A DNA stretch of 64,000 nt from an uncultured Chloroflexia bacterium (GCA_963749705.1 CAVVNQ010000003.1:288001-352000); one strand, 5' to 3'; counted from the first letter of the stretch, positions 50,072-64,000 are shown. Program-made: numbers and translations. Notes: generated by a model not told the origin, from the letters alone.

Positions 50072-52186
50072 ATGAGCAGCGTGGGATCCCGGGATGGGCA
50101 GCGCGAGACGATGGATGACCTGGACGTGCTCCTCGCGGCACTGCCGCCGGAGATCGTCGCCGCCATCCACGCCCTGCCCGACCCCGAGACGCTGATCGAG
50201 GTCGTGCTCGACCTGGGCCGCCGGCCGGAGGCGCGCTACCCCAACAGCGAGGTCGCGCTGCTCGAGCGCGAGATCGGGGAAGCCGACATCCAGTACGTCG
50301 TCGAGCACATCGGGACGTTCGGCGACGACAACCGCGCCGGCATCGAGCGGACGCTCCACCGGATCAGCGCCATCCGGAACCGCAACGGCAAGGTCGTCGG
50401 GCTCACCTGCCGCATCGGGCGCGCCGTGTACGGCACGATCGAGATCATCTCCGACTTCGTCCAGAGCGGGAAGTCGATCCTGATCATGGGCCGGCCGGGC
50501 ATCGGCAAGACGACCATGCTCCGCGAGGCGGCCCGCGTGCTCGCGGACGAGCAGGGCAAGCGCGTCGTGGTGGTCGACACCTCGAACGAGATCGCGGGCG
50601 ACGGCGACATCCCGCACCCGGCGATCGGCAAGGCGCGCCGGATGCAGGTCCGGACGCCCAGCCTCCAGCACGAGGTCATGATCGAGGCCGTCGAGAACCA
50701 CATGCCCCAGGTCATCGTCATCGACGAGATCGGGACGGAGCTCGAGGCGCAGGCGGCGCGCACGATCGCCGAGCGCGGCGTCCAGCTGATCGGCACCGCC
50801 CATGGCAACAACCTCGACAACCTGATGCTCAACCCCACGCTGTCGGACCTGATCGGCGGCATCCAGAGCGTGACCCTGGGTGACGAGGAGGCGCGCCGGC
50901 GTCGGACCCAGAAGAGCGTGCTCGAACGCAAGGCGCCGCCGACGTTCGACGTCATCGTCGAGATCCAGGACCGGGAGCGGGTGATGGTCCACGCGGATGT
51001 CGCGGCGACCGTCGATTCGATGCTCCTCGGCGACCTCGTGACACCCGAGCTCCGCTGGCGGGACGAGGAAGGCGTGCATCGCTCGCAGGCGCGACCCAAG
51101 CCGTCCGCCCGCGACTCCGGATCGGGCGATCGGTTCAACGGGCTCACCGGCTCGGGTGCCGGTGCCTGGGGGCGCGAGCCCGGCTGGCGTGGGACGTCGA
51201 CCTACCGCACCGGGGGCTACGCGGGCGAGGACCGGCTGCCCACTCGACCCGGGTTCCGGCCCGGTCAGGCCGGCGGTTGGCGCAGCTCGCGCGGTGGCTC
51301 GGATCGTGGCAGCGACCGTGGCGCGCGCACACCGGAGGGCGATCGACCAGCGTCGCTGAACACCCTGCCGGGCGAGCGGTTCGCGGTGCAGCCCGGGTCG
51401 CCGTTCGTCGCCGGTGACATCGCCGACCGGGGACCGCTGGAGCGCGCCGAGGCCGCGGCGGCCGCCGAGATCCGCGCCCGCGATGCCCGCGAGCTGCAGC
51501 GCCAGAAGGCGTGGCGCGACGAGGCAGCACGCGCGCTCAACGCCCTCCGCGAGGACGAGGGCACCCGTCCAGTCAACGCGGCCGAGCTGGAGGCAGAGGC
51601 GGAGCGCCAGCTCGCGCTGCTCGTCCCCGGCGAGACCGGGCCGGGACCCGACGAGGCCGATGACGACGACGCCGCGTTCGGCGACGGCGCGCTCGAGGTC
51701 GAGGGTGGCACGCTGCCGACCCTGCGCGTGTTCCCGCACGGGATCAGCCGCAAGCGCCTGGAGCAGGCGATCCGAGACCTGCAGCTGCCCGTGATCGTGG
51801 CCCGCGATGTCGACGAGGCCGACGTCGCGATGACCCTGCGCAGCGAGTATCGCCAGAAGCCGCCGGCGATCCGGGAGGCGGAGGATCGGGCGATCCCGGT
51901 CTACGTCCTCAAGTCCAACACGATCGTCCAGATGCAGGCATCGCTGACCTCGATCTTCGCGCTCGAGGTAGACCCGCGCGAGGCCGCCCTGCGCGAGACG
52001 GAGCAGGCGATCGGGATGGTCGTGAAGCAGCAGGAGCCCGTCGAGCTGGCCCCCCAGAACGCGTACATCCGCCGACTGCAGCACCAGATGGCCGAGCGGG
52101 CGAATCTCGTCTCGCGGTCACGCGGGCGCGAGCCGTACCGTCGCGTGCGCCTGTACCCGGACGCGGCCCGCACGACCTGGCGCTAG
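50072..52186 (+). CDS. Ycf45/SpoIIIAA-like AAA ATPase with C-terminal R3H domain
   Basis: [29 protein letters not shown]; RRLQH R3H motif; start may be 50111. Confidence 0.9.
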
Positions 52187-53682: not shown

Positions 53683-55125
53683 TCAGGTCCGGCGGAGGAC
53701 CTCGCGCGCCGCGTGCCAGCCGCTCATCCCGTGCACGCCCCCACCCGGCGGCGTCGAGGACGAGCACAGGAACAGCCCAGGATCCGGCGTCGTGTACGGG
53801 TTCCAGCGGAGGACCGGCCGGAACAGCAGCTGGCGGATGTCCTGGATCCCGCCGTTGATGTCACCGCCGATGTAGTTCGCGTCATACGCCTCCATCGCGG
53901 CCGGGTCACGGGTGGACCGTGCGAGGACCAGATCCCGGAAGCCGGGAGCGAAGCGCTCCACCTGTGTCTCGATCACCTCGGCCATGTCCGCGGTCGAGCC
54001 GTTCGGCACGTGGCAGTACGCCCATGCGACGTGCTTCCCCTCGGGGGCCCGCGACGGATCCGCGATGGTCGGCTGGACGAGCAGCACGAACGGGCGATCG
54101 GTGGTTCGGCCCCGCGAGATCGCGGCCTCTCCCCGGGCCATCTCGTCCAGCGTGCCGCCCAGGTGCACCGTCCCGGCCCGCGCCGTGCGCGCGTCCTGCC
54201 ATGGGATCGGGCCGTCGAGCGCCCAATCAACCTTGAACACGCCCGGCCCGTACCGATACCGCTCGAGCCCGCGTCGATAGCCGCCGGCCAGCCGGTCGCC
54301 GGCGATGGCCAGCACCTGGCGCGGCGTGAGGTCCATGACGATCGTTCGCGCCGGGGGCAGCCCGGCCAGCGACTCGACCCGGTGGCCGGTCACGATCTGG
54401 ACCCCCAGCGATCGGGCTTCGGCCTCGAGCATGTCCACGATCCGCCCGCTGCCGCCTCGAGCCACCGGCCACCCGACGGCGTGCGCGAGCGCCGCGAGCA
54501 CGAGCCCGAACGTACCCGTGAGCGGGCGGTCGAGGCGCAGCATCGAGTGGGCGGCGAGGCCCGCGAACAGCGCTCGCGTTCCGGCGTCGCGAAACGCGAG
54601 CCGGGTGAGCGCCGTGGCCGGCAGCAGGCCGGGCAGCCCGAAGCGGGCCATCAGGATCGGATGGCGCGGCGGCCTGACGACCGGACCGAGCACCGCGGGC
54701 ATCAGCCGCTCCCATTCGCGAACCAGGGGACCCACCAGGCGCCGCCAGGCGGTCGCGTCGCGGGCGGACCAGCCCGACGCATCGAGGGCGTCGAGATCGC
54801 GCTCGAGGAGGACGCTCCGGCCCGGCGTGAGCGCGTGCGCCACGGGCGCCTCGGGCTGCACCCACTCGAGGCCGTGGCGGGCCGCGTCCAGGCTGCGCAT
54901 GAACGGTGACGCGAGCGCCAGCGGGTGGACCGCCGAGCACGGGTCGTGGATGAAGCCAGGCAGCGTCAGCTCGGCGGAGCGCGACCCGCCGCCGACCGTG
55001 TCGGCGGCTTCGTACAGGCGGACCGAACGACCGGCCCGGGCCAGCTCGATCGCGGCGGCGAGCCCGTTTGGCCCGCCGCCGATCACGATCGCGTCGAGTG
55101 CGCTCGAGCCGCCTCCGGCAGTCAT
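53683..55125 (-). CDS. Phytoene dehydrogenase-like FAD oxidoreductase
   Basis: IGGGPNGL, HDPCSAVHP, STPPGGGVHGMSG. Confidence 0.9.
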   Translation of the reverse strand: MTAGGGSSALDAIVIGGGPNGLAAAIELARAGRSVRLYEAADTVGGGSRSAELTLPGFIHDPCSAVHPLALASPFMRSLDAARHGLEWVQPEAPVAHALTPGRSVLLERDLDALDASGWSARDATAWRRLVGPLVREWERLMPAVLGPVVRPPRHPILMARFGLPGLLPATALTRLAFRDAGTRALFAGLAAHSMLRLDRPLTGTFGLVLAALAHAVGWPVARGGSGRIVDMLEAEARSLGVQIVTGHRVESLAGLPPARTIVMDLTPRQVLAIAGDRLAGGYRRGLERYRYGPGVFKVDWALDGPIPWQDARTARAGTVHLGGTLDEMARGEAAISRGRTTDRPFVLLVQPTIADPSRAPEGKHVAWAYCHVPNGSTADMAEVIETQVERFAPGFRDLVLARSTRDPAAMEAYDANYIGGDINGGIQDIRQLLFRPVLRWNPYTTPDPGLFLCSSSTPPGGGVHGMSGWHAAREVLRRT

Positions 55126-55144
55126 GTGCCCATGGTGACGGCGA

Positions 55145-55915
55145 TCAGCCGACCGCGCGCCGCCGACGAACCCACCTGGCCGGTGCCGTGACCGTGCCGA
55201 TCGCCATGTTCACGGCGGCGCTGTGGCGCAGGTTGCGGACGTACCGCCACTGTCGCTTGCGATCGACGCACACCTTGCGCGCGGTCACCTCGGGCACAAC
55301 GACGCCAACGGCGCGCGCCAGGTTCTCCAGCGTCTGCTCCCAGAAGTGGTCGTTGGAGCGGTTGGCGCCGAACATGTAGGTGAGCTCGATGAACGGGTCG
55401 CTGGTGCGCTCCAGCGCCTGCGCCTGGGCGATGGTCGTGTCGCCGTCGCGGAAGGCCGAGAACGTGATCCAGGCCGACAGGGCGTGGCCCTCGGGCGTCA
55501 TGAACGTGAACGACTCGTTGTCGGCATAGATGACCATCACGCCGGTCGACATCTTGACCGGCGATCCGGGCACCGGCGCGATCTCGAGCAGGGCGACCTC
55601 GCCGGGCTTGATCCCGGACAGCGGTGCATAGAACCGCGCGCCCTTGGGCCAGAAGGTCGGGAAGCGCTCCTTCCAGAACGCGACCAGCGCCTCGGGCGTC
55701 ATGTCCACGCCGTCGAGACGGACGCTGAACGTCTTCTGCCACATCTGGCCGAAGCCCTGGACGGGCCCGGCGACACGGCGCCCGGTGACCGTGTCCATGC
55801 CGGTGGTGACGGCCGTCGTCGACAGCCTGGTGACGGGGTGCGCCCAGGCGTCCGTATCGCGACGGGCCGGGTTGGTGGCGGTGTCGGTGGGGGGATTGGT
55901 GGGGGACGCGGACAT
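55145..55915 (-). CDS. Conserved-looking hypothetical protein (possibly SRPBCC/DUF1990-like), last gene of the STAS module
   Basis: GFGQMWQKT, FTFMTPEGH, FWEQTL; GGAGG RBS; co-oriented with STAS genes. Confidence 0.72.
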   Translation of the reverse strand: MSASPTNPPTDTATNPARRDTDAWAHPVTRLSTTAVTTGMDTVTGRRVAGPVQGFGQMWQKTFSVRLDGVDMTPEALVAFWKERFPTFWPKGARFYAPLSGIKPGEVALLEIAPVPGSPVKMSTGVMVIYADNESFTFMTPEGHALSAWITFSAFRDGDTTIAQAQALERTSDPFIELTYMFGANRSNDHFWEQTLENLARAVGVVVPEVTARKVCVDRKRQWRYVRNLRHSAAVNMAIGTVTAPARWVRRRRAVG

Positions 55916-55937
55916 CTCGTTACCTCCGATCGTCCGG

Positions 55938-56279
55938 TCAGGCCGAGGCGGCCGCGAGCGCGGCGCTCTCGTCGTCGTGGATACCGATCGCCTCGTCAAG
56001 GCGTGTCAGGGCCAGGATCTGGCGGTAGTGGTCGGACAGCCCGATCGCGTGCAGCCGCTGTCCCGCGCGCTGCGCCCGGACAAGGAGCGTGACCAGGAGG
56101 CCGATGCCACCGCTGTTCATGTACTCGAGGTCGCCGAAGTCGAGGACGACCGAGCGGACACCGGACCCGGCCCGGCCGTAGGCGTCCATCAGCACCTCCT
56201 CGCTGGCGCCCGTGATCTCGCCGTGGATCCGCAGGATGGTCGCCGACCCCGCGGGCACGATGTCGATGGTGGTGCTCAT
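55938..56279 (-). CDS. STAS anti-anti-sigma factor
   Basis: LDFGDLEYMNSGGIGLL with phosphorylatable Ser. Confidence 0.9.
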   Translation of the reverse strand: MSTTIDIVPAGSATILRIHGEITGASEEVLMDAYGRAGSGVRSVVLDFGDLEYMNSGGIGLLVTLLVRAQRAGQRLHAIGLSDHYRQILALTRLDEAIGIHDDESAALAAASA

Positions 56280-56638
56280 CGAGCCGCCTCCTCAAGCTGG
56301 CCGGCCGCGGGCTCCGGGTCGGCGATGGTCAGGTAGTCCGAGAGCCGGGTGATCCGGAAGATCTCCCGGTAGTGGTCCGAGAGGCCGACCGCGATGACCT
56401 CGCGATGGTCGCGCCGCGCCTCGGCCAGGAGCCGGACGATGAGCGCGATGCCGGTCGAGTTGATGTAGTCCACGGTCCCGAAGTCGAGCACCAGGCGCGT
56501 GGCGCCGGCATCGACCGCCGCCCGATAGGCGCCGCTCAATGTCTCGTCGGCCGCGATGTCCACGTCGCCGCGCATCGCGAGGCGGACCTCCCCCGGGCTT
56601 GCCGCGATGACCTCGATGTCGAGTCGTTGCTTGTCCAT
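56276..56638 (-). CDS. STAS anti-anti-sigma factor
   Basis: LDFGTVDYINSTGIAL, IFRITRL. Confidence 0.9.
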   Translation of the reverse strand: MDKQRLDIEVIAASPGEVRLAMRGDVDIAADETLSGAYRAAVDAGATRLVLDFGTVDYINSTGIALIVRLLAEARRDHREVIAVGLSDHYREIFRITRLSDYLTIADPEPAAGQLEEAAR

Positions 56639-56653
56639 CGTGGTTCTCCCTCT

Positions 56654-58297
56654 TCAGCGCCCGTCCCGGGCGAGGGTGAGCGTGACCGTCTGCAGCCCAT
56701 CGGCGAAGTGCACGTCCATCCCGTCCACCATGTGGCGGATCAGGAACAGCCCCCAGCCACGCGGCTTCTGACGGCCCTCGAGCTTGGCATCGAGATCAGG
56801 CGCCTCGACATCGGGCACCGGACCGGACAGGGCGCGGTCGGTGACACGCACCCGGATCTCCCTGGCATCCGCGTCCACGCGGACGTCGACCGGGATGTCG
56901 GGGTTGCCCTGTGACCCGTACTCGATCGCGTTCATCACCGTCTCAGCGACCGCGGTCTTGAGCCGTTCCAGACGGCTCTCGGTGAGTCCGAGCGGTGCCA
57001 CGGCCTTGGCCACGCGCGTCATCGCGTCGCGCTCGTTGCCGATCGCACCCTCGATCGTGAACGCGATCAGGGCGTCGTCCGACGCGGTGGGCGCCGGTGC
57101 GTCATCGCGCGTCAGCTCGACCTCGGGGCGCACCTCGGACCAGCCGGCGGTGCCCGCGGAGCGCTGGAGAGCGACCAGCGTGATGTCGTCCTCCTGCTCG
57201 ATGACCGGACCCTGGAACTCCTTTAGCCCGACCAGCAGCCGGTCCAGCAGCTCGGTGCCGGCGTCGTCACCCTCCATCGCCTGGCGCAGACGAGGGAAGC
57301 CGTACATCTCGCGGTCCGGTCCGTGCTGCTCCACGACCCCGTCCGAGTAGAGGAGCATCCCCTCGCCCGGTCCGACGACGCCCTCGGCCTCCTCGTAGGT
57401 GATGTCCGGCATCAACCCCAGCGGCAGCCCGGTCGCCCGGAGCTCCGTGACGCCGCCCTCGGTTCGGACGTAGGGCAGGTTGTGACCGGCATTGGCGAAC
57501 CGGAAGCGGCCGACCGCTGGCTCCAGGACGCCATACAGGCAGGTCACGAACATCTTGGCCGGCATCTCGGGGACCAGCAGCTCGTTCGCACGAGCGAGCA
57601 CCTTGCCGGGGTCGACCAGGCGGGGGGCCTCGGCCCGGAGGATCGAGTGTGTCCGGGCCATGACGAGGGCGGCCGGGACGCCCTTGTCGGTGACGTCGCC
57701 GACGACGACACCGATACGGCCATCGCCGAGGTCGATGAAATCGTAGAAGTCGCCGCCGACGACCCGTGCCGGGCCGTAGTAGGCCGCGATCTGCCACTCC
57801 GGCAGGTTGGGCAGCTGGCGCGGCAGGAACTGCTGCTGGATGAGCTGCGCGACCTTGAGCTCCTGCTCGTAGCGCTCGCGCTCCGCGGCCTCGGCGGCCT
57901 GCTCGCGCACCAGCTGGGCGACGCGGATCGCGGGCGCTGCCTGCGCGGCGAGCGTCGCCAGGAGCCGGCGGTCATCCGTCGAGTAGTCCTGCTCGGAGAG
58001 GCGGGGCCCGAGGTTGAGGGTCCCGATGAGCTCGCCCTGGGTGACCAGCGGCACGACCAGCGCGACGCCGGCGTCGCGCAGCGCCTGGAGCGCCGGCGAC
58101 GCGAGCTCCAGCTTCGACAGATCGACCGGACCGGGCGCCGCCTGCAGGAACGCGAACAGCGGATCGGTCTCGGGGATGTCGATCGCCACGCCGGGCTGGT
58201 CGACCAGGGTCGGTGCCGCGGCGGCGGGCGCCGCCTCGTCGACCGCCTGGGCGTGTCCGCTGCGGAGACGGCGGAATGGACGGGTCAGGGCTGTCAT
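56654..58297 (-). CDS. Partial GAF + SpoIIE/PP2C phosphatase + RsbW-type HATPase kinase fusion
   Basis: VVPLVTQGELIGTLNLG; EL.VAQ.IQ..FLP; VGGDFYD, GDVTDKG, NAGH, YSDG, DDIT; E..MNAIEYG, RGWGLFLI; alternative start 58315. Confidence 0.92.
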   Translation of the reverse strand: MTALTRPFRRLRSGHAQAVDEAAPAAAAPTLVDQPGVAIDIPETDPLFAFLQAAPGPVDLSKLELASPALQALRDAGVALVVPLVTQGELIGTLNLGPRLSEQDYSTDDRRLLATLAAQAAPAIRVAQLVREQAAEAAERERYEQELKVAQLIQQQFLPRQLPNLPEWQIAAYYGPARVVGGDFYDFIDLGDGRIGVVVGDVTDKGVPAALVMARTHSILRAEAPRLVDPGKVLARANELLVPEMPAKMFVTCLYGVLEPAVGRFRFANAGHNLPYVRTEGGVTELRATGLPLGLMPDITYEEAEGVVGPGEGMLLYSDGVVEQHGPDREMYGFPRLRQAMEGDDAGTELLDRLLVGLKEFQGPVIEQEDDITLVALQRSAGTAGWSEVRPEVELTRDDAPAPTASDDALIAFTIEGAIGNERDAMTRVAKAVAPLGLTESRLERLKTAVAETVMNAIEYGSQGNPDIPVDVRVDADAREIRVRVTDRALSGPVPDVEAPDLDAKLEGRQKPRGWGLFLIRHMVDGMDVHFADGLQTVTLTLARDGR

Positions 58298-58318
58298 GGC
58301 CGCATCCTCATGCATGAA

Positions 58319-58336
58319 CGTCCGGACATCGTTACG
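58319..58336 (-). promoter_or_regulatory. 18-bp motif CGTAACGATGTCCGGACG upstream of the phosphatase
   Basis: 16/18 identical to the motif at 61497-61514. Confidence 0.5.
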
Positions 58337-58391
58337 AACAACCGTGATTGTTCAACATCGTCACGCACCGCCGAGTCGTCAATGGTGAACG

Positions 58392-59588
58392 TCACTGCCC
58401 TGCCTCCTGCCGGCTGCGCAGCCACAGCCCCGCGTGGATCGGACGGACCGTCTCGTCGACGGTGGCCAGTGCCTCGCGCTCGATGGACGCCAGCCCGACC
58501 TCGTCCCGCAGACGCTCGGCAAAGGCATCGACGGTGCGCTGCCCGTCGTACCTGGCCCGGTCGAACCGGCGGTCGACCCCAGCCTGGATCCGCCGCCGCA
58601 AGGGCTGGAACAGCGCGAACGCGACCAGCGTGGACCCGGCGACCGCCAGCGTCTCGCCCTGGGTGAACCCCGCGAGCAGCGCCTGCAGGGCGAGCACCAG
58701 ACCTACGAACACCGCCGCCAGGATCCCGGTCACCAGCGCCCAGCCGATCGTGCGGCTGATGAGCCGGTCGATCTCGTACAGCCGGTACCGGAGGACCGCG
58801 ATGCCGATGGCGATGGGGAGGAAGGCGAAGGCGAGCATCAGCAGCGACCATGACCAGGTGTTCTGGAACATGGCGAGAACCAGCACCGACGCGGCGAGCA
58901 GGACGATCCCTGCCACGAACCACTTGAGCTGCTCGCGCTCGGCCCCAGCAGCCCTGCGGAACCGCATCACGACTGCGCCGACGGCGACCGCGAGCAGGAT
59001 CCCCATGGTGACCGTGGCCGCGCCCCCGATCAGCCTCAGAACGCCTTCATCCGAGCCTGTGGGGGTGACGAGGGCGACGGTTGTGATCGCGGCCACCACG
59101 CCCACGATCCGCCACCGAGGTCCTGGTAGCCGCCCATCCGGGAACAGGAGCGGGAGCCACACGGCCAGGAGTGGGTACGCGAGCCCCGAGAGCGTGGGCG
59201 CCAGCGAGTCAAGCAGCCGATATCCGGGAAGGGCTGGCCCAACGATCGTGCTTCGCTCCACGTAGGCTTCCGTGAAGTCCCCGAGAATCAGGCTCACCCC
59301 CCCGACCAGCAGGATCCAGCCGATCGGATTGCGCGGTCGAAGCACCACGAGGATCGCTCCGACGACGGGCAGGCTCAGAGAAGCCGCAACGGACGAGGCG
59401 ATGGCGATGAGGTCCGTCGCGTCCTGCGCGCCAATGGACAGCTGCTCGTGTCCCGGCAGGATGGCCGAGGCGAACATGAACCCCACCATGCCCAGGGCGA
59501 TGAGGAGCAGGGCGACCGCGAGCCAGGTGGTGGGCCGGCGTCGGGCGGGGACGGCAGGTTCGGGGCGGGTGACGCGGGCTGCCGTCAC
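58392..59588 (-). CDS. Multi-TM receptor-like protein, paralogue 1, ending in a GAF N-terminal fragment
   Basis: NPIGW, FPDG, REQLKWF, LRYRLYEID, FQPLRRRIQ..VDRRF.RARYD, ends VRPIHAGLWLR; GTGA-coupled to paralogue 2. Confidence 0.88.
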   Translation of the reverse strand: MTAARVTRPEPAVPARRRPTTWLAVALLLIALGMVGFMFASAILPGHEQLSIGAQDATDLIAIASSVAASLSLPVVGAILVVLRPRNPIGWILLVGGVSLILGDFTEAYVERSTIVGPALPGYRLLDSLAPTLSGLAYPLLAVWLPLLFPDGRLPGPRWRIVGVVAAITTVALVTPTGSDEGVLRLIGGAATVTMGILLAVAVGAVVMRFRRAAGAEREQLKWFVAGIVLLAASVLVLAMFQNTWSWSLLMLAFAFLPIAIGIAVLRYRLYEIDRLISRTIGWALVTGILAAVFVGLVLALQALLAGFTQGETLAVAGSTLVAFALFQPLRRRIQAGVDRRFDRARYDGQRTVDAFAERLRDEVGLASIEREALATVDETVRPIHAGLWLRSRQEAGQ

Positions 59589-60802
59589 CGGCCCGCCCCC
59601 TGGCGCTCGCGCAGCCACAGCCCGACCGCGGCCGGACGCACGGCAGCGTCGACCGTGGCCGGGACCTCGGCCCGAATGGTCTCGAGATCGACCTGGTCGC
59701 GCAGCCGCTCGCTGAACGCCCCGACGAGCTGCTGCCCGTCGTACCGGGCCCGGTCGAACCGGCGGTCGACCCCAGCCTGGATCCGCCGCCGCAGGGGCTG
59801 GAACAGCGCGAACGCCGCCAGGGTGGACGCCGCCACCGCGAGCGTCTCGCCCTGGGTGACGCCAGCCAACAGCGCCTGCAGCCCGATCACCAGACCTACG
59901 AACACGGCCGCCAGGATCCCGGTCACCAGCGCCCAGCCGATGGTCCGGCTGATCAGCCGGTCGATGTCGTACAGCCGGTACCGCAGGATCGCGATGCCGA
60001 TGGCGATGGGGATCGCGATCATCCCGAGCATGAAGAGGTAGAAGGCCAGCTCATTGCCCGTCGCTCCGGCGATGGGGAGCACGATCGCCATGTAGCCGGC
60101 GGCCGCCAGGAACCACTTGAGCTGCTGGCGCTCGGGACCGCGGGATCGCCGGTAACGAACGATCACTGCCGCGATCGCCACGAGGATCCCGACGAGGAAG
60201 AAGACGCCCAGCGCCTTGAGGGCATCGGTCACGGGACCGTCGGCGGCAATCGGGTTGGGCAGGATCCCGTCGGTCGTCAGCGCCTCGACCGCGACCTGAC
60301 TGGCGGTACCGATGGCGGCCACCCAGGCGACAGGGCGCCAGTGCGAGCCTGGCAGGTGACCATCCGGGAACAACATGGGGACCCAGATCACGGCCAGCCC
60401 GACTGCAGCGGTGATCGACCAGGAAGCAACCCAGTCGACCAGGCGATAGCCGGGCAGGTCGGCACCCAGCCCGACGCTCCGACCGACATACTCCCAGGAG
60501 AAGACGTAGATGGAGAAGCCGAACCCGATCAGGAGGAACAGCCAGCCGATCGGGTTGGATGGCTGGCGAACGGCGAGGATCGCGCCAACGGCAGGCGACG
60601 TGAGGAGCACGCCCAGCACGACCGGGGCACTGACCGGCCCGAGCGGGTTGGTCTCGCCAGGTCGACCGGCCAGCTGCTCGGTACCTGGCAGGACCGCGAG
60701 GACGAACGCGAAGCACACCATTCCGACGGTGCTCGCCAGCAGGACGCCGGCAGCCCAGACCCCAGGCCGTCGCCACGTTGTCCCGGAGAGACCGCCGGTC
60801 AT
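59585..60802 (-). CDS. Multi-TM receptor-like protein, paralogue 2
   Basis: Same motifs; ends VRPAAVGLWLR; start uncertain. Confidence 0.88.
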   Translation of the reverse strand: MTGGLSGTTWRRPGVWAAGVLLASTVGMVCFAFVLAVLPGTEQLAGRPGETNPLGPVSAPVVLGVLLTSPAVGAILAVRQPSNPIGWLFLLIGFGFSIYVFSWEYVGRSVGLGADLPGYRLVDWVASWSITAAVGLAVIWVPMLFPDGHLPGSHWRPVAWVAAIGTASQVAVEALTTDGILPNPIAADGPVTDALKALGVFFLVGILVAIAAVIVRYRRSRGPERQQLKWFLAAAGYMAIVLPIAGATGNELAFYLFMLGMIAIPIAIGIAILRYRLYDIDRLISRTIGWALVTGILAAVFVGLVIGLQALLAGVTQGETLAVAASTLAAFALFQPLRRRIQAGVDRRFDRARYDGQQLVGAFSERLRDQVDLETIRAEVPATVDAAVRPAAVGLWLRERQGAGR

Positions 60803-61013
60803 CGTCGGCTGCGGTTGAGCGGCTGCTTCGGCTGGCGCGCCACAGGCGCCTCGTTCATCGGCATCGGTGGACCTCCTGCGCGGATGCCGCGCGCATCGCC
60901 TGGACACCCATGGTCGGCCGCCATCGCAACCCCTGACCTCGCTGGGGGCACGCCCGGGCCCTCATGTTCCTCAGGAGGGCCCGGGCCGTTCCCTATCGCG
61001 GGCGAGAGGTGAC

Positions 61014-61433
61014 CTACACGTGAGTGCCGAGAGCCGCCGTGTAGATCTGGACCGCCGCGGGGAACCAGTCGCCGAGATGGTCGACCCCCTTGCCGTCAGC
61101 GGCGTGCTTGTCCATGGCCGGCGTGCCTTCGGCAATGGTGTGGTTACCGATGAAGATCGAGAACTCGTTCGGCATACCCGCCGCCCTCGCCTCGCCGACA
61201 GCCCACGCGAGCTGGCTGTCCGACAGGGGTGGAAGGCCGGTCTCGTCGGCCAGGAGCCCAAACAGCTCAGACAGGCTCCCGATGTAGACCCACGCACGCG
61301 AGTGGGTGCCTGCCGTCACGGTGCCAGTATCCGACCGGCTGGCGATGAAGCACTCGTGTCCGAGCGCGGTTCCGGCGCCGAGGGTGGCGATCAGCGTTCC
61401 GGCGAGGATCGAGCGGGCGAGAATGCGACGCAT
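61014..61433 (-). CDS. Small secreted protein
   Basis: Signal peptide MRRILARSILAGTLIATLGAGTALG then HECF; GGAGG RBS. Confidence 0.8.
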   Translation of the reverse strand: MRRILARSILAGTLIATLGAGTALGHECFIASRSDTGTVTAGTHSRAWVYIGSLSELFGLLADETGLPPLSDSQLAWAVGEARAAGMPNEFSIFIGNHTIAEGTPAMDKHAADGKGVDHLGDWFPAAVQIYTAALGTHV

Positions 61434-61496
61434 CGGTGGCCTCCAGCTGCGGCAGCTCCAGGGGGCGGGCTGCGTAGCCAGAGTCAACCGGTCGCG

Positions 61497-61514
61497 CGTC
61501 CCGAAATCGTTACG
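61497..61514 (-). promoter_or_regulatory. 18-bp motif CGTAACGATTTCGGGACG upstream of the secreted protein
   Basis: 16/18 identical to the motif at 58319-58336. Confidence 0.5.
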
Positions 61515-61571
61515 GAGGCCAGGATCTTGGGTTGCGCATCGCGGACCGCTTGAGGCGCTAGACGCGACGAA

Positions 61572-62786
61572 TCATGAGGCGCCTCCGCCGGAATGCCGGA
61601 TCCAGACCGACGCTCCGCTCGGTCCCAGGGACCGGACGATGGCCGCGATGGCACCTTCGGTGACCTCGTTCAGGTCGGTGACGCCCTGGAGATGCGCTGC
61701 AAAGCCGCCGACCGTCTGCTCCGCGTCGTACCGACTGCGGTTGAAGCGACGGTCGACGGCGGCCTGGATCCGCCGGCGTGCCGGCTGGAACAGGGCGGCG
61801 GCCGCCAGCGTCGAGGCGGCGACCGCGAGGCTGCTCTCGCTGGTCACCGGGGCGAGCAACGCCTGGAGGGTAACGATCAGCCCGGCGAACAGCGCCCCGA
61901 TGAGGCCGGTCGTGAGCGCCCAGCCGACAGTTCGGCTGACGATCCGGTCGATGTCCCACAGGTGGTAGCGGAGGATCGCGATCCCGATCGCGATGGGCAG
62001 CAGCGGCAGCATCGCCAGTCCCAGAGCCCAGGCGGCGTCCGAGATCGGCCCGTTGTTCGGGAGCGAGATCACGAACGTCACCACGGCGACGCTCGCGACG
62101 AGGCCAAACCATTTGAGCTGCTGGCGCTCGACAGCCGCCGCCTGCCGGTAGCGCAGGAACACACTGATCACCGCGCCTCCGAAGAAGACCGGCGTGGCGA
62201 GGTTGGAGACCAGGGTGACGATCGCGAGCACGTCGGTCGCTCCCGCGATCCCGAGCGGGTTCCGGATCCAGGGTGTGCTCGACAGTGGTCCGGGCGTGAA
62301 CGCCACGGCCAAGGTCCCAAGGATGCCGACCAGGCCGATCCGGCCGAATGCGCGCCAGCGCGGCCCCAGGAAGCGACCGGTCGGAAACAGCAGCGGAAGG
62401 TAGACCAGGAGCATCCCGATCGCGGGCAGGAAGGTCCAGCTCGACAGCCAGGCGATCGGGACCACCAGCGGCAGCCCCGCCGCGAGGTCATGGTCGTAGT
62501 TCACGTACGTGCCGCCGAAGATCCCGATCGCTGCCGCCAGCCCGGACAGCTCGAGCAGCCAGCCAACCGGATTGCCGACCCGGTACGCCACGAAGCCGCC
62601 GACCAGCGTGAGCGAGAGCACGATCGCCGGGAAGATCACGATGAATACAGGCCCGGTCGGCCCGTATTGGTCGAGCGTCGCGATCCCCAGCGGGATCCCC
62701 ACGGCAGTGAACGCAACGGCCACCGCCGCGATCGCCGAGATGATCGCCAGCCGCACTCGCGAGCGGCGCCGACTCCGGATCATCAT
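61572..62786 (-). CDS. Multi-TM receptor-like protein, paralogue 3
   Basis: NPVGW, FPTG, RQQLKWF, LRYHLWDID, VDRRFNRSRYD, ends LGPSGASVWIR. Confidence 0.88.
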   Translation of the reverse strand: MMIRSRRRSRVRLAIISAIAAVAVAFTAVGIPLGIATLDQYGPTGPVFIVIFPAIVLSLTLVGGFVAYRVGNPVGWLLELSGLAAAIGIFGGTYVNYDHDLAAGLPLVVPIAWLSSWTFLPAIGMLLVYLPLLFPTGRFLGPRWRAFGRIGLVGILGTLAVAFTPGPLSSTPWIRNPLGIAGATDVLAIVTLVSNLATPVFFGGAVISVFLRYRQAAAVERQQLKWFGLVASVAVVTFVISLPNNGPISDAAWALGLAMLPLLPIAIGIAILRYHLWDIDRIVSRTVGWALTTGLIGALFAGLIVTLQALLAPVTSESSLAVAASTLAAAALFQPARRRIQAAVDRRFNRSRYDAEQTVGGFAAHLQGVTDLNEVTEGAIAAIVRSLGPSGASVWIRHSGGGAS

Positions 62787-62878
62787 CGCGCGCGACCTCG
62801 GATCCAGACCGTGCTGAACGCGGGCTGCACGGCGGGGACCGCACACGTGCCGGTGGCGAGTGCCCGGGCCTGCGTCAT
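62783..62878 (-). CDS. 31-aa mini-ORF carrying only the receptor C-terminal motif (remnant or peptide)
   Basis: MTQARALATGTCAVPAVQPAFSTVWIRGRAR; ATGA overlaps at both ends. Confidence 0.55.
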   Translation of the reverse strand: MTQARALATGTCAVPAVQPAFSTVWIRGRAR

Positions 62879-64000
62879 CGCGCGATCCCGCCATGACGCG
62901 TCCAGACGCCCACCGACCGGGGCTGCATCGAGCGCGCCACGACGGCCTCCAGGTGCTCGTTGAGGGCCTCGAGCGCCGCGTCGTCGCGCAGCCCGGCCGC
63001 AAAGCCGTCGAGGACACGCTGGGCATCGACATGCGCCCGATTGAACCGCCGGTCGACCGCCGTCTGTACGCCGCGCCGCAACGGTTGGAACACGGCGAAG
63101 GCGACGAGGGTCGCTGAGGCGACGGCGATCGTGCTCTGCCCCGTCAGCCGGCTCAGCAGCACCTGGATGCCAACGACCGTCACCGCGAACAGGACCGCGA
63201 GGACGGCGCTGATGATCAGGTAGCTGATCGTGCGGCTGACGATCCGGTCGATGTCCCAAAGCCGGTAGCGGAGCACCGCGACGCCGGCCGAGATCGGGAT
63301 CCCCAGGATGCCAGCCGTGACCACGTCCTGGGTGAGCTTGTCACCGCCCGGTGGGAGGACGCCGAGCTTGCCCAGCGGGATGACCCAGAACACCAGACCG
63401 CAGACGGCGACGCTGAAGGCAAGCCACTTGAGCTGCTGACGGCTCTCCCCCGTCGCCCGGCGGAATCGAAGCACGAGGGCGCTGGCGCCGATGAAGATGG
63501 CGACGATGAGCGGCATGTAGGCAATCCAGCGCAGCTCGGGTCGGATGCCGATGTCGATGGCGAAGGGGTTGGACAGATAGGCGGCGTTGTCGAGTGGTCC
63601 CGGCAGCAAGGCGGCACCCAGTGTCGCGAGAGCCACGATCGCGACGTCGAGCCCCATGACCAGCCGCCAACGCGAGCTCAGCAGGCGGCCGTCCGGGAAC
63701 ACCAGCGGCAGGAACACGGTCACCAGCGCGATGGCTGGGATCCAGATCCAGCCGGAGACCCAGGCTGCGACCTCCCCTCCCGCATGGGCGCCCGGCTCGG
63801 CGATGAGGGCCAGCGTCGCGTACTGATCGCAGGCGCCCTCCACGGCCGACAGGATGCCGGCGGCCAGGAACAGCCACCCGATCGGGTTTCCCCGTACGCG
63901 GATCACGACGATGGCCCCAATCGCAACGCAGGTGACCGCGATCGCGATCGGAAATCCGCGGACCGACCACGTGCCTGGGACCTCCACCGACCACGTGTTG
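62875..64000 (-). CDS. Multi-TM receptor-like protein, paralogue 4 (5' end probably outside the window)
   Basis: NPIGW, FPDG, RQQLKW, LRYRLWDID, VDRRFNR, ends MQPRSVGVWTR. Confidence 0.88.
   Translation of the reverse strand, partial: NTWSVEVPGTWSVRGFPIAIAVTCVAIGAIVVIRVRGNPIGWLFLAAGILSAVEGACDQYATLALIAEPGAHAGGEVAAWVSGWIWIPAIALVTVFLPLVFPDGRLLSSRWRLVMGLDVAIVALATLGAALLPGPLDNAAYLSNPFAIDIGIRPELRWIAYMPLIVAIFIGASALVLRFRRATGESRQQLKWLAFSVAVCGLVFWVIPLGKLGVLPPGGDKLTQDVVTAGILGIPISAGVAVLRYRLWDIDRIVSRTISYLIISAVLAVLFAVTVVGIQVLLSRLTGQSTIAVASATLVAFAVFQPLRRGVQTAVDRRFNRAHVDAQRVLDGFAAGLRDDAALEALNEHLEAVVARSMQPRSVGVWTRHGGIAR

What the first reader, a model, noticed from the sequence alone, without database searches (positions are those of the whole stretch)
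55145..64000. Candidate split-GAF signalling system: receptor array carries the GAF N-half, a phosphatase/kinase carries the C-half
Seen: four paralogous multi-TM proteins have no output domain and all stop at the same point, after helix-helix-strand (e.g. FSERLRDQVDLETIRAEVPATVDAAVRPAAVGLWLR). This parallels the start of an intact GAF in gene 1 of this window (IVAGVNANLELGAVFEDVLDASQALFGADVAGLWLL). The downstream SpoIIE/HATPase protein has no TM segment and shows only the end of a GAF (ALVVPLVTQGELIGTLNLG...DRRLLATLAAQAAPAI; compare MIVCPLVVAGEVIGTLNLS...FELVQLFAGQASIAL in gene 1). Known: TM sensor-GAF-PP2C/kinase is a common single-chain architecture. Inference: the GAF is split in trans, so interchangeable receptors dock on one enzyme by fold complementation and control two STAS proteins. 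I know of no description of this but cannot search the literature.
Basis: partly seen in the sequence, partly recalled or inferred. Interest (0 to 1): 0.9.

Follow-up and report, generated by a model that had tools for sequence, protein, structure and literature searches.

The report
Naturally split GAF sensor with receptor array
A soil bacterium encodes several membrane receptors that each end with the first piece of a GAF sensor domain, next to one phosphatase/kinase that starts with the rest of that domain, so receptor and enzyme probably snap together to signal.

Summary
Four tandem multi-TM paralogues (R1-R4, minus strand) have no Pfam domain. All stop 6-7 residues after a conserved W-x-R strand. 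The next gene is a soluble SpoIIE/PP2C + HATPase_c_2 protein (PK) whose GAF match covers only the C-terminal part of the profile. Two STAS genes and a DUF1990-like gene follow.

Natural single-chain homologues exist (P0024; five Chloroflexota genomes). In them the receptor tail and the enzyme's partial GAF are contiguous. Pfam GAF then spans the whole profile, starting inside the tail. AlphaFold2 gives a confident complete GAF for one such fusion (pLDDT 91.8). PK's N-terminus alone gives an incomplete one.

The split operon R(n)-PK-STAS-STAS-X is present in 80 of 80 related loci. In a 401-genome phylum sample, split PK and tail-terminated receptors occur in the same 27 genomes, against 2 tail-only genomes and 4 PK-only genomes (3 of those 4 carry a fused form).

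Receptor paralogues keep the tail (58% identity) while the membrane part diverges (38%).

Docking in trans is inferred, not shown: the one complex prediction gave no verdict. I read this as a gene-fission, split-GAF partner-switching module, a new variant of a known kind. I found no description of it in print.

The parts
62875..64000 (-). Receptor R1. It is a multi-TM protein whose 5' end runs off the window; the full open frame in the genome is 423 aa. The tail lies at 62875-63090.
   Evidence: 9 TM-like segments; W-x-R at residue 366 of the 374 seen, 6 residues before the stop; no Pfam domain.
61572..62786 (-). Receptor R2, 404 aa with an ATG start. The tail lies at 61572-61790.
   Evidence: 40% identity to R3. 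One search scanned a slightly shorter version and found no Pfam domain.
59585..60907 (-). Receptor R3, at most 440 aa from a GTG start; an ATG at 60802 is an alternative start. The tail lies at 59585-59803.
   Evidence: This protein was the query.
58392..59618 (-). Receptor R4, at most 408 aa. It is the last of the array and its stop lies 94 nt before the PK start. The tail lies at 58392-58610.
   Evidence: It is the first row of alignment A1.
56654..58297 (-). PK, a soluble 547-aa enzyme. Its parts in order are a basic N-terminal peptide and a disordered linker (residues 1-38), a GAF remainder, a long linker helix, a SpoIIE/PP2C phosphatase domain and an RsbW-type HATPase_c_2 kinase domain.
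   Evidence: Pfam; NCBIfam, partial matches only; AF2 of residues 1-150; no TM segment; ATG preceded by GAGGA.
57926..58129 (-). The part of PK that Pfam matches to GAF, covering only the C-terminal part of the profile.
   Evidence: PF01590 profile positions 64-133 of 133; helix, helix, two strands and a long helix, with no N-terminal helix or strand; only partial GAF matches.
57161..57724 (-). SpoIIE/PPM (PP2C) phosphatase domain of PK.
   Evidence: PF07228, E 1.1e-47, profile positions 2-191 of 192.
56675..57022 (-). HATPase_c_2 domain of PK (anti-sigma-factor type Ser kinase).
   Evidence: PF13581, E 1.7e-19, profile positions 11-126 of 127.
56276..56638 (-). STAS protein 1, 120 aa.
   Evidence: STAS, STAS_2. 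(TIGR00377; 52.6 bits against a cut-off of 53.45); a Ser aligns with the Ser of the DSAG motif of TM1442.
55938..56279 (-). STAS protein 2, 113 aa. Its start overlaps the STAS1 stop by 4 nt.
   Evidence: its Ser aligns with the first Ser of the DSSG motif of SpoIIAA (1th8_B), which is Ala in 1tid_B.
55145..55915 (-). X, 256 aa, the conserved last gene of the cassette, DUF1990-like.
   Evidence: no Pfam match at E<=1; the nearest Atlas clusters are auto-named DUF1990 family (a lead only); it follows the two STAS genes in most of the loci.

Best explanation
This is a gene-fission version of a single-chain sensor of the type multi-TM receptor, GAF, PP2C phosphatase, RsbW-type kinase.

Each receptor paralogue keeps a variable membrane sensor and a constant cytoplasmic tail. 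The tail consists of a juxtamembrane signalling helix, GAF helix 1 and GAF strand 1, the strand carrying an invariant Trp. The soluble enzyme PK keeps the remainder of the GAF and the long helix that leads into the phosphatase.

I propose the following steps.
1. The tail docks on PK and completes the GAF sheet and helical bundle in trans.
2. This ties PK to a receptor at the membrane.
3. Receptor state then passes through the signalling helix and linker helix to set the balance between the PP2C and kinase activities.
4. That balance sets the phosphorylation of the two STAS proteins, which relay to an unknown target, possibly the DUF1990-like protein X.
5. Several receptors (seven tail-terminated ones in this genome) would share the one enzyme.

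Shown here: the domain content, the split point, the existence of natural fusions, the fold of the fused form as a model, operon conservation, co-occurrence, and stronger conservation of the tail than of the sensor.

Inferred: physical docking, the direction of regulation, the STAS proteins as substrates, and the output.
For: 1. The split is real and precise.
- PK matches only the C-terminal part of the GAF profiles.
- AF2 of PK residues 1-150 alone gives disordered residues 1-38, then two short helices, two strands and a long helix. There is no N-terminal helix or strand.
- Foldseek finds only GAF domains, all partial: 0 hits at E<=1e-3, TM-score to target 0.33-0.44.

2. Natural fusions join the pieces.
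- P0024 and P0029 are receptor + GAF + SpoIIE + HATPase_c_2 in one chain.
- In P0024, Pfam GAF covers profile positions 1-132 of 133 over residues 378-499, and so starts inside the tail.
- Five more fusions occur in Chloroflexota genomes in the same STAS/X context, with a loop of about 15 to about 90 residues between strand 1 and the remainder.

3. The fused form folds as a complete GAF.
- AF2 of one natural fusion (L079) has pLDDT 91.8 and pTM 0.81.
- Tail strand 60-64 is assigned as a beta strand, and the only other strands lie in the enzyme-side part.
- Foldseek gives 122 hits at E<=1e-3. The listed top matches are GAF domains or GAF-containing proteins, with TM-score to target up to 0.71.

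4. Fused and split forms interleave on a tree of the enzyme part. At least 2 changes of state are forced by well-supported branches.

5. Linkage.
- Eighty loci were chosen only by similarity to the PK N-terminus. All 80 have a split PK, and 79 have 1-8 tail-terminated receptors directly upstream on the same strand. The remaining one has them downstream.
- Among 17 split-PK loci from nine families, counting the window, 15 have a receptor in the fetched stretch, in either gene order.

6. Co-occurrence in one 401-genome draw.
- 29 genomes have strong tail hits (best E<=1e-28) and 31 have a PK orthologue (best E<=1e-88). 27 genomes have both.
- The 4 PK-only genomes include 3 with the fused form.
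- Presence is patchy within families but coincident. In f17 the same 3 of 12 genomes have both, and in f3 the same 1 of 16.
- The thresholds were set after seeing the gaps in the E-value lists.

7. The constraint sits on the tail.
- Within-locus paralogues are 58% identical in the 65-residue tail and 38% in the preceding 300 residues. The tail is the more conserved part in 544 of 550 pairs.
- The positions conserved in 385 stand-alone tails (P3, Q9, RRF, F30, LR, P57, W63) are the same ones conserved in the fusions.

8. The split is old and intact. The PK orthologue matches over the full query (from position 1) in 19 of 36 other genomes of the genus, and 4 more hold strong partial matches. It starts with the same Met-led basic peptide in 19 of the 22 loci read (21 of those genomes plus the window's own).
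Against: No tool result shows binding.

The tail alone has no detectable GAF similarity. Pfam finds nothing at E<=1, and hhalign against the first GAF of gene 1 gives probability 5%.

Tail-terminated receptors also sit far from PK.
- Three are elsewhere in this genome.
- Many receptor pairs or arrays in other genomes have no PK in the fetched stretch: 13 of the 20 array stretches. For at least four of these, PK lies just outside the stretch.

Two genomes that are 91-92% complete have such receptors but no PK was found in them. The tail may therefore have a PK-independent role.

AF2 models PK residues 41-150 with fair confidence without the tail (block pLDDT 77-93), so the remainder might be stable by itself or by self-association.

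Kin are not independent, so the co-occurrence counts overstate the statistics.

No sigma factor or other known output lies in the operon.
Confidence: 0.58

Rival explanations
1. Receptor and enzyme act in the same pathway, but there is no fold complementation. After the ancestral gene split, the receptor tail became an autonomous helical stub, for example for receptor dimerisation. PK's truncated GAF became a mere dimerisation or linker module. Receptors and PK would then communicate in another way, such as a diffusible product, another contact surface or a third protein like X, or they would only be co-regulated.
For: - PK residues 41-150 are modelled with fair confidence without the tail.
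- The tail alone is not recognised as GAF.
- Orphan receptors and two receptor-only genomes exist.
- PK has a conserved basic N-terminal peptide of its own that could target it to the membrane independently.
Against: - The very last strand, with its invariant Trp, sits 0-9 residues from the C-terminus in 328 of 396 tails. The same positions are conserved in the fusions, where that strand is part of the GAF sheet. A lone terminal strand has no partner within the receptor tail.
- The tail is more conserved than the sensor in 544 of 550 paralogue pairs.
- State changed between fused and split at least twice.
Confidence: 0.27
2. The tail-terminated receptors are independent membrane proteins, either sensors for another partner or transporters. 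Their neighbourhood with PK reflects shared regulation or history only. PK would be an ordinary cytosolic RsbU/RsbW-like enzyme with a degenerate GAF.
For: - The tail profile finds 14,007 cluster representatives at E<=1e-3 in the 1.84-billion-protein library. That family may be much wider than PK's.
- Receptors occur far from PK, and in two genomes without PK.
- Public annotations call PK plain 'RsbU/anti-sigma regulatory factor'.
Against: - Split PK and strong-tail receptors coincide in 27 genomes of 401, with only 2 tail-only genomes, and they are patchy but coincident within families.
- 80 of 80 PK-selected loci carry receptors.
- Fusions of exactly these two parts exist.
Confidence: 0.12
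3. The pattern is an artefact: frameshifted or decaying pseudogenes of one long sensor gene, or assembly errors in a metagenome-assembled genome.
For: - The genome is an 88% complete assembly in 22 contigs.
- Some relatives show receptor and PK in one open frame, or with frame breaks (L019, L029, L036; P0027, P0006, P0033).
Against: - The same stop position recurs in hundreds of intact genes from independent assemblies.
- PK has its own ATG with a GAGGA motif upstream. The same Met-led basic N-terminal peptide opens PK in 19 of the 22 genus loci read.
- There is no room between the R4 stop and the PK start for the missing GAF elements. The gap is 94 nt, and the PK frame opens only 18 codons upstream of its ATG.
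- Codon-position GC is that of coding sequence throughout.
Confidence: 0.03

Closest known systems
Single-chain receptor-GAF-SpoIIE-HATPase_c_2 proteins (P0024, 919 aa, named by NCBI 'SpoIIE family protein phosphatase [Actinomycetota bacterium]'; P0029)
   Same: They share the membrane domain (37% identity over 92% of R3 for P0024), the tail, the GAF remainder, the PP2C domain and the kinase domain.
   Different: They are one polypeptide. The window has four separate receptor genes and a separate enzyme, cut in the loop after GAF strand 1.
RsbU-type PPM phosphatases regulated through an N-terminal domain and a coiled-coil linker, including GAF-PPM proteins such as C. difficile RsbZ, and RsbT activating RsbU in trans (PMC12143880; I read passages only)
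   Same: A sensor domain joins a PPM phosphatase through a long helix. A separate protein can switch the phosphatase on by binding its N-terminal region. The output runs through STAS proteins.
   Different: In those systems the N-terminal domain is complete, and the activator is a folded protein that binds to it. Here the sensor domain itself appears to be divided between receptor and enzyme.
Fused partner-switching enzymes such as M. tuberculosis Rv1364c (PAS, PPM, anti-sigma kinase, STAS) and S. coelicolor OsaC (as described in passages of PMC12143880)
   Same: Phosphatase and RsbW-type kinase lie on one chain, with a sensor domain in front.
   Different: They are soluble and have complete PAS or GAF sensors. 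They have no membrane receptor array and no split.
Donor-strand complementation in chaperone-usher pili (recalled; not searched for as such)
   Same: An incomplete beta fold is completed by a strand supplied by another polypeptide.
   Different: That is a structural assembly outside the cell, not a signalling domain. It is a resemblance only.
Engineered split phytochrome reporters (PMC4992171; seen in a search listing only)
   Same: PAS/GAF-based proteins can be reassembled from two pieces.
   Different: They are man-made. As I recall, they are split between the PAS and GAF domains rather than within a GAF.

Membership tests
GAF domain (Pfam PF01590 / PF13185 / PF13492) | A match over the whole profile within one polypeptide | tested here: not met
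   PK matches only profile positions 64-133 of 133, 91-135 of 136 and 70-127 of 129. The receptors match nothing at E<=1. The fused homologue P0024 matches positions 1-132 of 133.
GAF domain (fold) | A central antiparallel sheet with an N-terminal helix and a C-terminal helix packed on one face | tested here: inconclusive
   This is met by the AF2 model of a natural fusion. It is not met by PK residues 1-150 alone. The trans assembly of the window's own two chains could not be judged (no verdict).
PPM / SpoIIE phosphatase (PF07228) | A full-length profile match above the gathering score | tested here: met
   162.9 bits against a cut-off of 25, profile positions 2-191 of 192. Catalytic metal-binding residues were not checked one by one.
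RsbW/SpoIIAB-type Ser kinase (HATPase_c_2, PF13581) | A profile match above the gathering score | tested here: met
   70.5 bits against a cut-off of 27.4. The NCBIfam equivalogs RsbW and SpoIIAB match only far below their cut-offs. It is therefore a member of the domain family, not an orthologue of either.
STAS anti-sigma-factor antagonists | A STAS profile match and a phosphorylatable Ser at the SpoIIAA acceptor position | tested here: met
   Both proteins exceed the Pfam STAS cut-off. In both, a Ser aligns with the Ser of DSAG or DSSG in TM1442 and SpoIIAA. That this Ser is the acceptor is recalled, supported by its replacement with Ala in 1tid_B.
Canonical partner-switching system (RsbU-RsbV-RsbW-sigma) | A sigma factor or other defined target held by the kinase and released by the STAS protein | tested here: not met
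   No sigma factor was found in the cassette, or in the next two genes downstream of X or the four genes beyond them on the opposite strand. The conserved fourth gene is DUF1990-like.
DUF1990 (PF09348), for protein X | A Pfam profile match | tested here: not met
   No Pfam match at E<=1. The Atlas's nearest clusters are auto-named DUF1990 family, with the Pfam family on only 10% of the members of one cluster. This is a lead only.
HisKA_7TM (PF16927), for the receptor membrane domain | A Pfam profile match | tested here: not met
   No match. The nearest named Atlas cluster scores 0.84, which is below the level that counts as more than a lead.

The most novel reading that the evidence does not exclude
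Fold complementation of a split GAF domain is a natural receptor-effector coupling principle. A family of thousands of 'plug-in' membrane receptors, each ending in a signalling helix plus GAF helix 1 and strand 1, competes for, or takes turns on, one cytosolic enzyme that carries the rest of the domain. New inputs can then be added by tandem gene duplication without touching the output enzyme. The half-GAF enzyme would be unfolded or inactive until it is plugged in.
Probability: 0.45. Interest if true: 0.88.

Novelty: new variant of a known kind. Interest (0 to 1): 0.74.

Why it matters
Bacterial sensors are normally described as chains of complete modules. A sensor domain that is itself divided between a receptor and its enzyme would be a different wiring principle, with many interchangeable receptors feeding one enzyme.

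It would explain a very large set of 'hypothetical' membrane proteins. The tail profile finds 14,007 cluster representatives at E<=1e-3. It would also explain why public annotation of the enzyme as plain RsbU/RsbW misses its input.

It is directly testable with short peptides and a 150-residue fragment. If it holds, it offers a natural design for modular, swappable inputs in synthetic signalling.

Tried and rejected
Complex prediction. I sent PK residues 1-150 (alignment A2) with the R4 tail (alignment A1). The three runs scored 0.62, 0.65 and 0.65. The two controls with the partner replaced scored 0.00 and 0.00. The control with chain 1 replaced by an unrelated protein scored 0.46. The tool's verdict was 'no answer', so I use this neither for nor against binding.

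Direct profile comparison of the tail with the GAFs of gene 1. The third GAF does not align meaningfully. I do not use this as support.

Programmed read-through or frameshifting that would join R4 and PK. I rejected this because the frame relation between the last receptor and PK differs among species of the genus (same frame with one stop in L018 and L027, other frames elsewhere). The window has a 94-nt gap in a different frame.

Self-completion of PK's GAF by its own N-terminal peptide. AF2 leaves residues 1-38 disordered. This is weak evidence only.

Promoter and terminator scan of 54500-64000. It was uninformative: 0 promoter-like sites and 1 terminator-like site, against 1.9 expected.

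NCBIfam. There was no family for the receptors or X, and PK matched only far below the cut-offs.

Inter-protein covariation between tail and PK. I considered it and did not run it, because both surfaces are too conserved in the roughly 100 loci held.

Literature. Searches used these terms: GAF domain, SpoIIE, partner switching, STAS, split GAF, fold complementation, trans complementation, gene fission, DUF1990, anti-sigma factor antagonist, Chloroflexi, Limnocylindria, tandem array, split domain, strand complementation, sensor histidine kinase, and incomplete, truncated or partial GAF. None found a description of a natural split GAF or of this operon.

A second call returned only a format error. 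No earlier findings were seen.

Full report
WHAT IS THERE

The region lies in a 70% G+C genome. Its genes were called by third-position G+C and open frames. All are on the minus strand:
- R1, 62875 to beyond the window end. The full frame in the genome is 423 aa.
- R2, 61572-62786.
- R3, 59585-60907.
- R4, 58392-59618.
- PK, 56654-58297, 547 aa. Its ATG has GAGGA nine bases upstream.
- STAS1, 56276-56638.
- STAS2, 55938-56279.
- X, 55145-55915.

The receptors have 8-9 hydrophobic TM-like segments. PK, the STAS proteins and X have none.

Pfam finds nothing in the receptors. In PK it finds SpoIIE (1.1e-47), HATPase_c_2 (1.7e-19) and GAF. The GAF matches cover only the C-terminal part of the three GAF profiles (PF01590 positions 64-133 of 133). 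Both small proteins are STAS. X has no Pfam match.

In all four receptors the DRRF motif and the W-x-R strand are 50 residues apart, and the stop follows 6-7 residues later.

IS THE TAIL THE MISSING PIECE OF THE GAF?

A search for longer homologues of R3 found true single-chain forms. P0024 (919 aa) and P0029 (910 aa) have the same membrane domain (37% identity over 92% of R3 for P0024), the tail, a GAF, SpoIIE and HATPase_c_2. The search also returned many receptor-GAF-HisKA_3 kinases and tandem double receptors.

In P0024 the tail's W-x-R strand is followed after about ten residues by the sequence that aligns with PK residues 37 onwards. Pfam GAF and GAF_3 there span profile positions 1-132 of 133 and 1-127 of 129 over residues 378-500. 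The GAF match therefore begins inside the tail.

Five more fusions were found in Chloroflexota genomes, followed by STAS and X genes where the contig allows (L065, L066, L067, L079, L082). Between strand 1 and the remainder they have a loop of about 15 to about 90 residues. That is exactly where the window's genes are cut.

Three other 'fusions' from the protein database (P0027, P0006, P0033) contain the PK start peptide internally. They look like frameshifted or read-through calls of adjacent genes.

STRUCTURE MODELS

AF2 of PK residues 1-150 with 16 homologues gave mean pLDDT 75.9.
- Residues 1-38 are disordered.
- The rest is helix 46-53, helix 68-75, strands 80-86 and 89-95, and helix 107-149.
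- Foldseek against the PDB returned only GAF domains, all partial. There were 0 hits at E<=1e-3, and TM-score to target was 0.33-0.44.

AF2 of the natural fusion L079:3151-3723 gave pLDDT 91.8 and pTM 0.81. The alignment held 5 fusions, 37 tails and 16 PK N-termini as rows.
- The elements are helix 2-34 (juxtamembrane), helix 40-55, strand 60-64, a low-confidence loop at 65-86, helix 87-94, helix 109-115, strands 121-127 and 130-137, and helix 148-190.
- The only strands other than 60-64 lie in the enzyme-side part, so the tail strand must pair with that sheet.
- Foldseek now gave 122 hits at E<=1e-3. The listed top matches are GAF domains or GAF-containing proteins, with TM-score to target up to 0.71.

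The refutation condition 'the phosphatase N-terminus folds as a complete GAF alone' is therefore not met by the models.

HOW WIDESPREAD AND HOW LINKED

Own genome:
- There are eight receptor paralogues: the four of the array, three elsewhere with the same tail end and no PK-like neighbour, and one with a different, longer C-terminus.
- There is only one PK-like half-GAF.

Genus:
- The PK orthologue matches over the full query (from position 1) in 19 of 36 other genomes, and 4 more hold strong partial matches.
- It starts with the same Met-led basic peptide in 19 of the 22 loci read (21 of those genomes plus the window's own).
- A receptor tail is found upstream in 21 of those 22 loci, in most of them ending close to the PK start.

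Phylum sample of 401 genomes, the same draw for both queries. The thresholds were set after seeing the gaps in the lists.
- 29 genomes have tail hits with best E<=1e-28. The next best is 3e-19.
- 31 genomes have PK hits with best E<=1e-88.
- 27 genomes have both, 2 only the tail (G275, G401) and 4 only PK (G197, G215, G233, G347).
- A profile search of G275 and G401 found no PK.
- Three of the four PK-only genomes carry the fused form, and the fourth is unclear.
- The 27 genomes lie in nine families and are patchy within them. In f17 the same 3 of 12 have both, and in f3 the same 1 of 16.
- G400, an unpublished genome, is one of the 27. Without it the table is 26, 2 and 4, of 400.
- Kin are not independent, so I give no P-value.

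Gene order:
- Receptors-PK-STAS-STAS-X occurs in families f1, f3, f17 and others.
- PK-STAS-STAS-X-receptors occurs in f7, f28 and others.
- Arrays reach at least 13 copies (L064).
- Of 17 split-PK loci examined, counting the window, 15 have a receptor in the fetched stretch. G224 and G339 do not.
- Of the 20 stretches chosen as receptor arrays, 6 contain PK. For at least four more, PK lies just outside the stretch. The rest show no PK, so dispersed receptor clusters are common.

An unbiased set. Eighty loci were picked only by similarity to the PK N-terminus, out of 559 confirmed relatives in GTDB species genomes. Most are titled Candidatus Limnocylindrales or Chloroflexota.
- All 80 have a split PK.
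- 79 have 1-8 tail-terminated receptors directly upstream on the same strand.
- One has them downstream.
- STAS genes and X follow wherever the contig continues.

Tail ends. Of 401 tails in loci L045-L162, 5 continue into a GAF remainder. Of the other 396, 328 stop 0-9 residues after W-x-R and 389 stop within 30. L090 and L137 duplicate L047 and L048.

Library-wide:
- The tail profile finds 14,007 cluster representatives at E<=1e-3 and 9,396 at E<=1e-10.
- Of the best 150, 130 end within 30 residues of the match.
- Of the 50 that are 380-500 aa long, 49 do.
- Ninety-three of the 150 are shorter than 380 aa and probably fragments.

The PK N-terminus finds 3,423 proteins at E<=1e-5 among the 8,000 candidates scored. 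The best 120 are 281-627 aa long, most about 547-570. Where they are named, they are called RsbU/anti-sigma regulatory factor or SpoIIE family phosphatase.

CONSTRAINT

Within loci, paralogous receptors are 58% identical (median) in the 65-residue tail and 38% in the preceding 300 residues. The tail is the more conserved part in 544 of 550 pairs.

The positions conserved in 385 unique stand-alone tails are the ones conserved in the five fusions, including the Pro before strand 1 and the Trp in it.

A quick maximum-likelihood tree of the enzyme part was built from 40 rows: 33 split and 7 fused. Of the split rows among L083-L162, only one in four was kept. The tree places the fusions in at least two separate positions, with 3 changes by parsimony, 2 of them forced by well-supported branches. 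Caveats are long branches, a midpoint root and a short search.

HOW IT MOST LIKELY WORKS

Shown: a sensor of the type receptor-GAF-PP2C-kinase exists both as one chain and as two. The cut lies in a variable loop after GAF strand 1. Both halves stay under constraint, stay linked and are gained or lost together.

Inferred: the tail docks on PK and completes the GAF.
- In the fused model the juxtamembrane helix and the long C-terminal helix flank the domain. Receptor state could therefore pass to the helix that leads into the PP2C domain.
- That is the kind of linker control described for RsbU-type phosphatases with PAS, GAF and other N-terminal domains (PMC12143880, passages read).
- PK, carrying both a PP2C and an RsbW-type kinase domain, would then set the phosphorylation of STAS1 and STAS2. 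Both have a Ser at the SpoIIAA acceptor position.

The target is unknown. There is no sigma factor in the cassette or its neighbours. The conserved fourth gene is DUF1990-like, from an Atlas lead only.

Seven tail-terminated receptors against one PK in this genome suggests shared or competitive use of the enzyme.

I put 0.58 on this mechanism. I put 0.27 on 'same pathway, no fold complementation', 0.12 on independent receptors and 0.03 on artefact.

WHAT COUNTS AGAINST

- No result shows binding. The single complex prediction ended without a verdict and is not used either way.
- Tail-terminated receptors persist far from PK, and in two genomes without a detectable PK.
- AF2 is fairly confident about PK residues 41-150 without the tail.
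- The tail alone is not recognisable as GAF.

COMPARISON AND NOVELTY

The parts are members of known domain families: PPM/SpoIIE, HATPase_c_2, STAS and, when fused, GAF. The logic resembles partner-switching modules with a sensor-linked phosphatase.

The differences are these:
- The sensor domain is divided between two gene products.
- The receptor part is multiplied in arrays with diverging membrane domains.
- The cassette carries a DUF1990-like gene instead of a sigma factor.

Five literature searches found no description of a natural split GAF or of this operon.

I rate it a new variant of a known kind, of high interest because it is easily tested and touches a very large family of unannotated membrane proteins.

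Noticed in passing
window 58183-58297 (-), PK residues 1-38; alignment A2: PK orthologues all begin with a short basic, partly hydrophobic peptide followed by a variable low-complexity linker. In MAFFT this peptide aligns by chance or otherwise with the start of the receptor tail. It may bind membrane or receptor. AF2 leaves it disordered.
   Followed up: partly
window 55145-55915 (-); loci L045-L162: A 256-aa protein with no Pfam match is the conserved last gene of the cassette after the two STAS genes. Atlas clusters nearest to it are auto-named DUF1990 family. It might be the target of the switch.
   Followed up: partly
G000:C3:441797-443350 (outside the window); also G000:C3:418025-419302, C6:126032-127564, C2:112417-113877: One further receptor paralogue has a longer, different C-terminus instead of the tail end; that domain was not analysed. 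Three more tail-terminated receptors lie singly beside unrelated genes.
   Followed up: partly
P0001 (801 aa); L048 351-2759; L050 9147-11555: Some relatives have two complete receptor modules, each with its own tail, in one open frame of about 800 aa. These are either tandem double receptors or a missed stop.
   Followed up: no
L018, L027, L019, L029, L036 (same genus); P0027, P0006, P0033: In some species the last receptor and PK are in the same frame separated by one stop, or are read as one frame with a break inside the tail. These could be assembly errors, pseudogenes or recent re-fusions.
   Followed up: partly
L071 9530-10636 (G324): A receptor next to a PK cassette is broken into three frames, apparently a decaying copy.
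   Followed up: no
   Followed up: partly
window 50072-52186 (+) and 53683-55125 (-): The neighbours are a 704-aa protein with AAA-type NTPase, PTPase and R3H matches, and a FAD amine-oxidase-like protein. Neither was among the cassette genes looked for in related loci.
   Followed up: no
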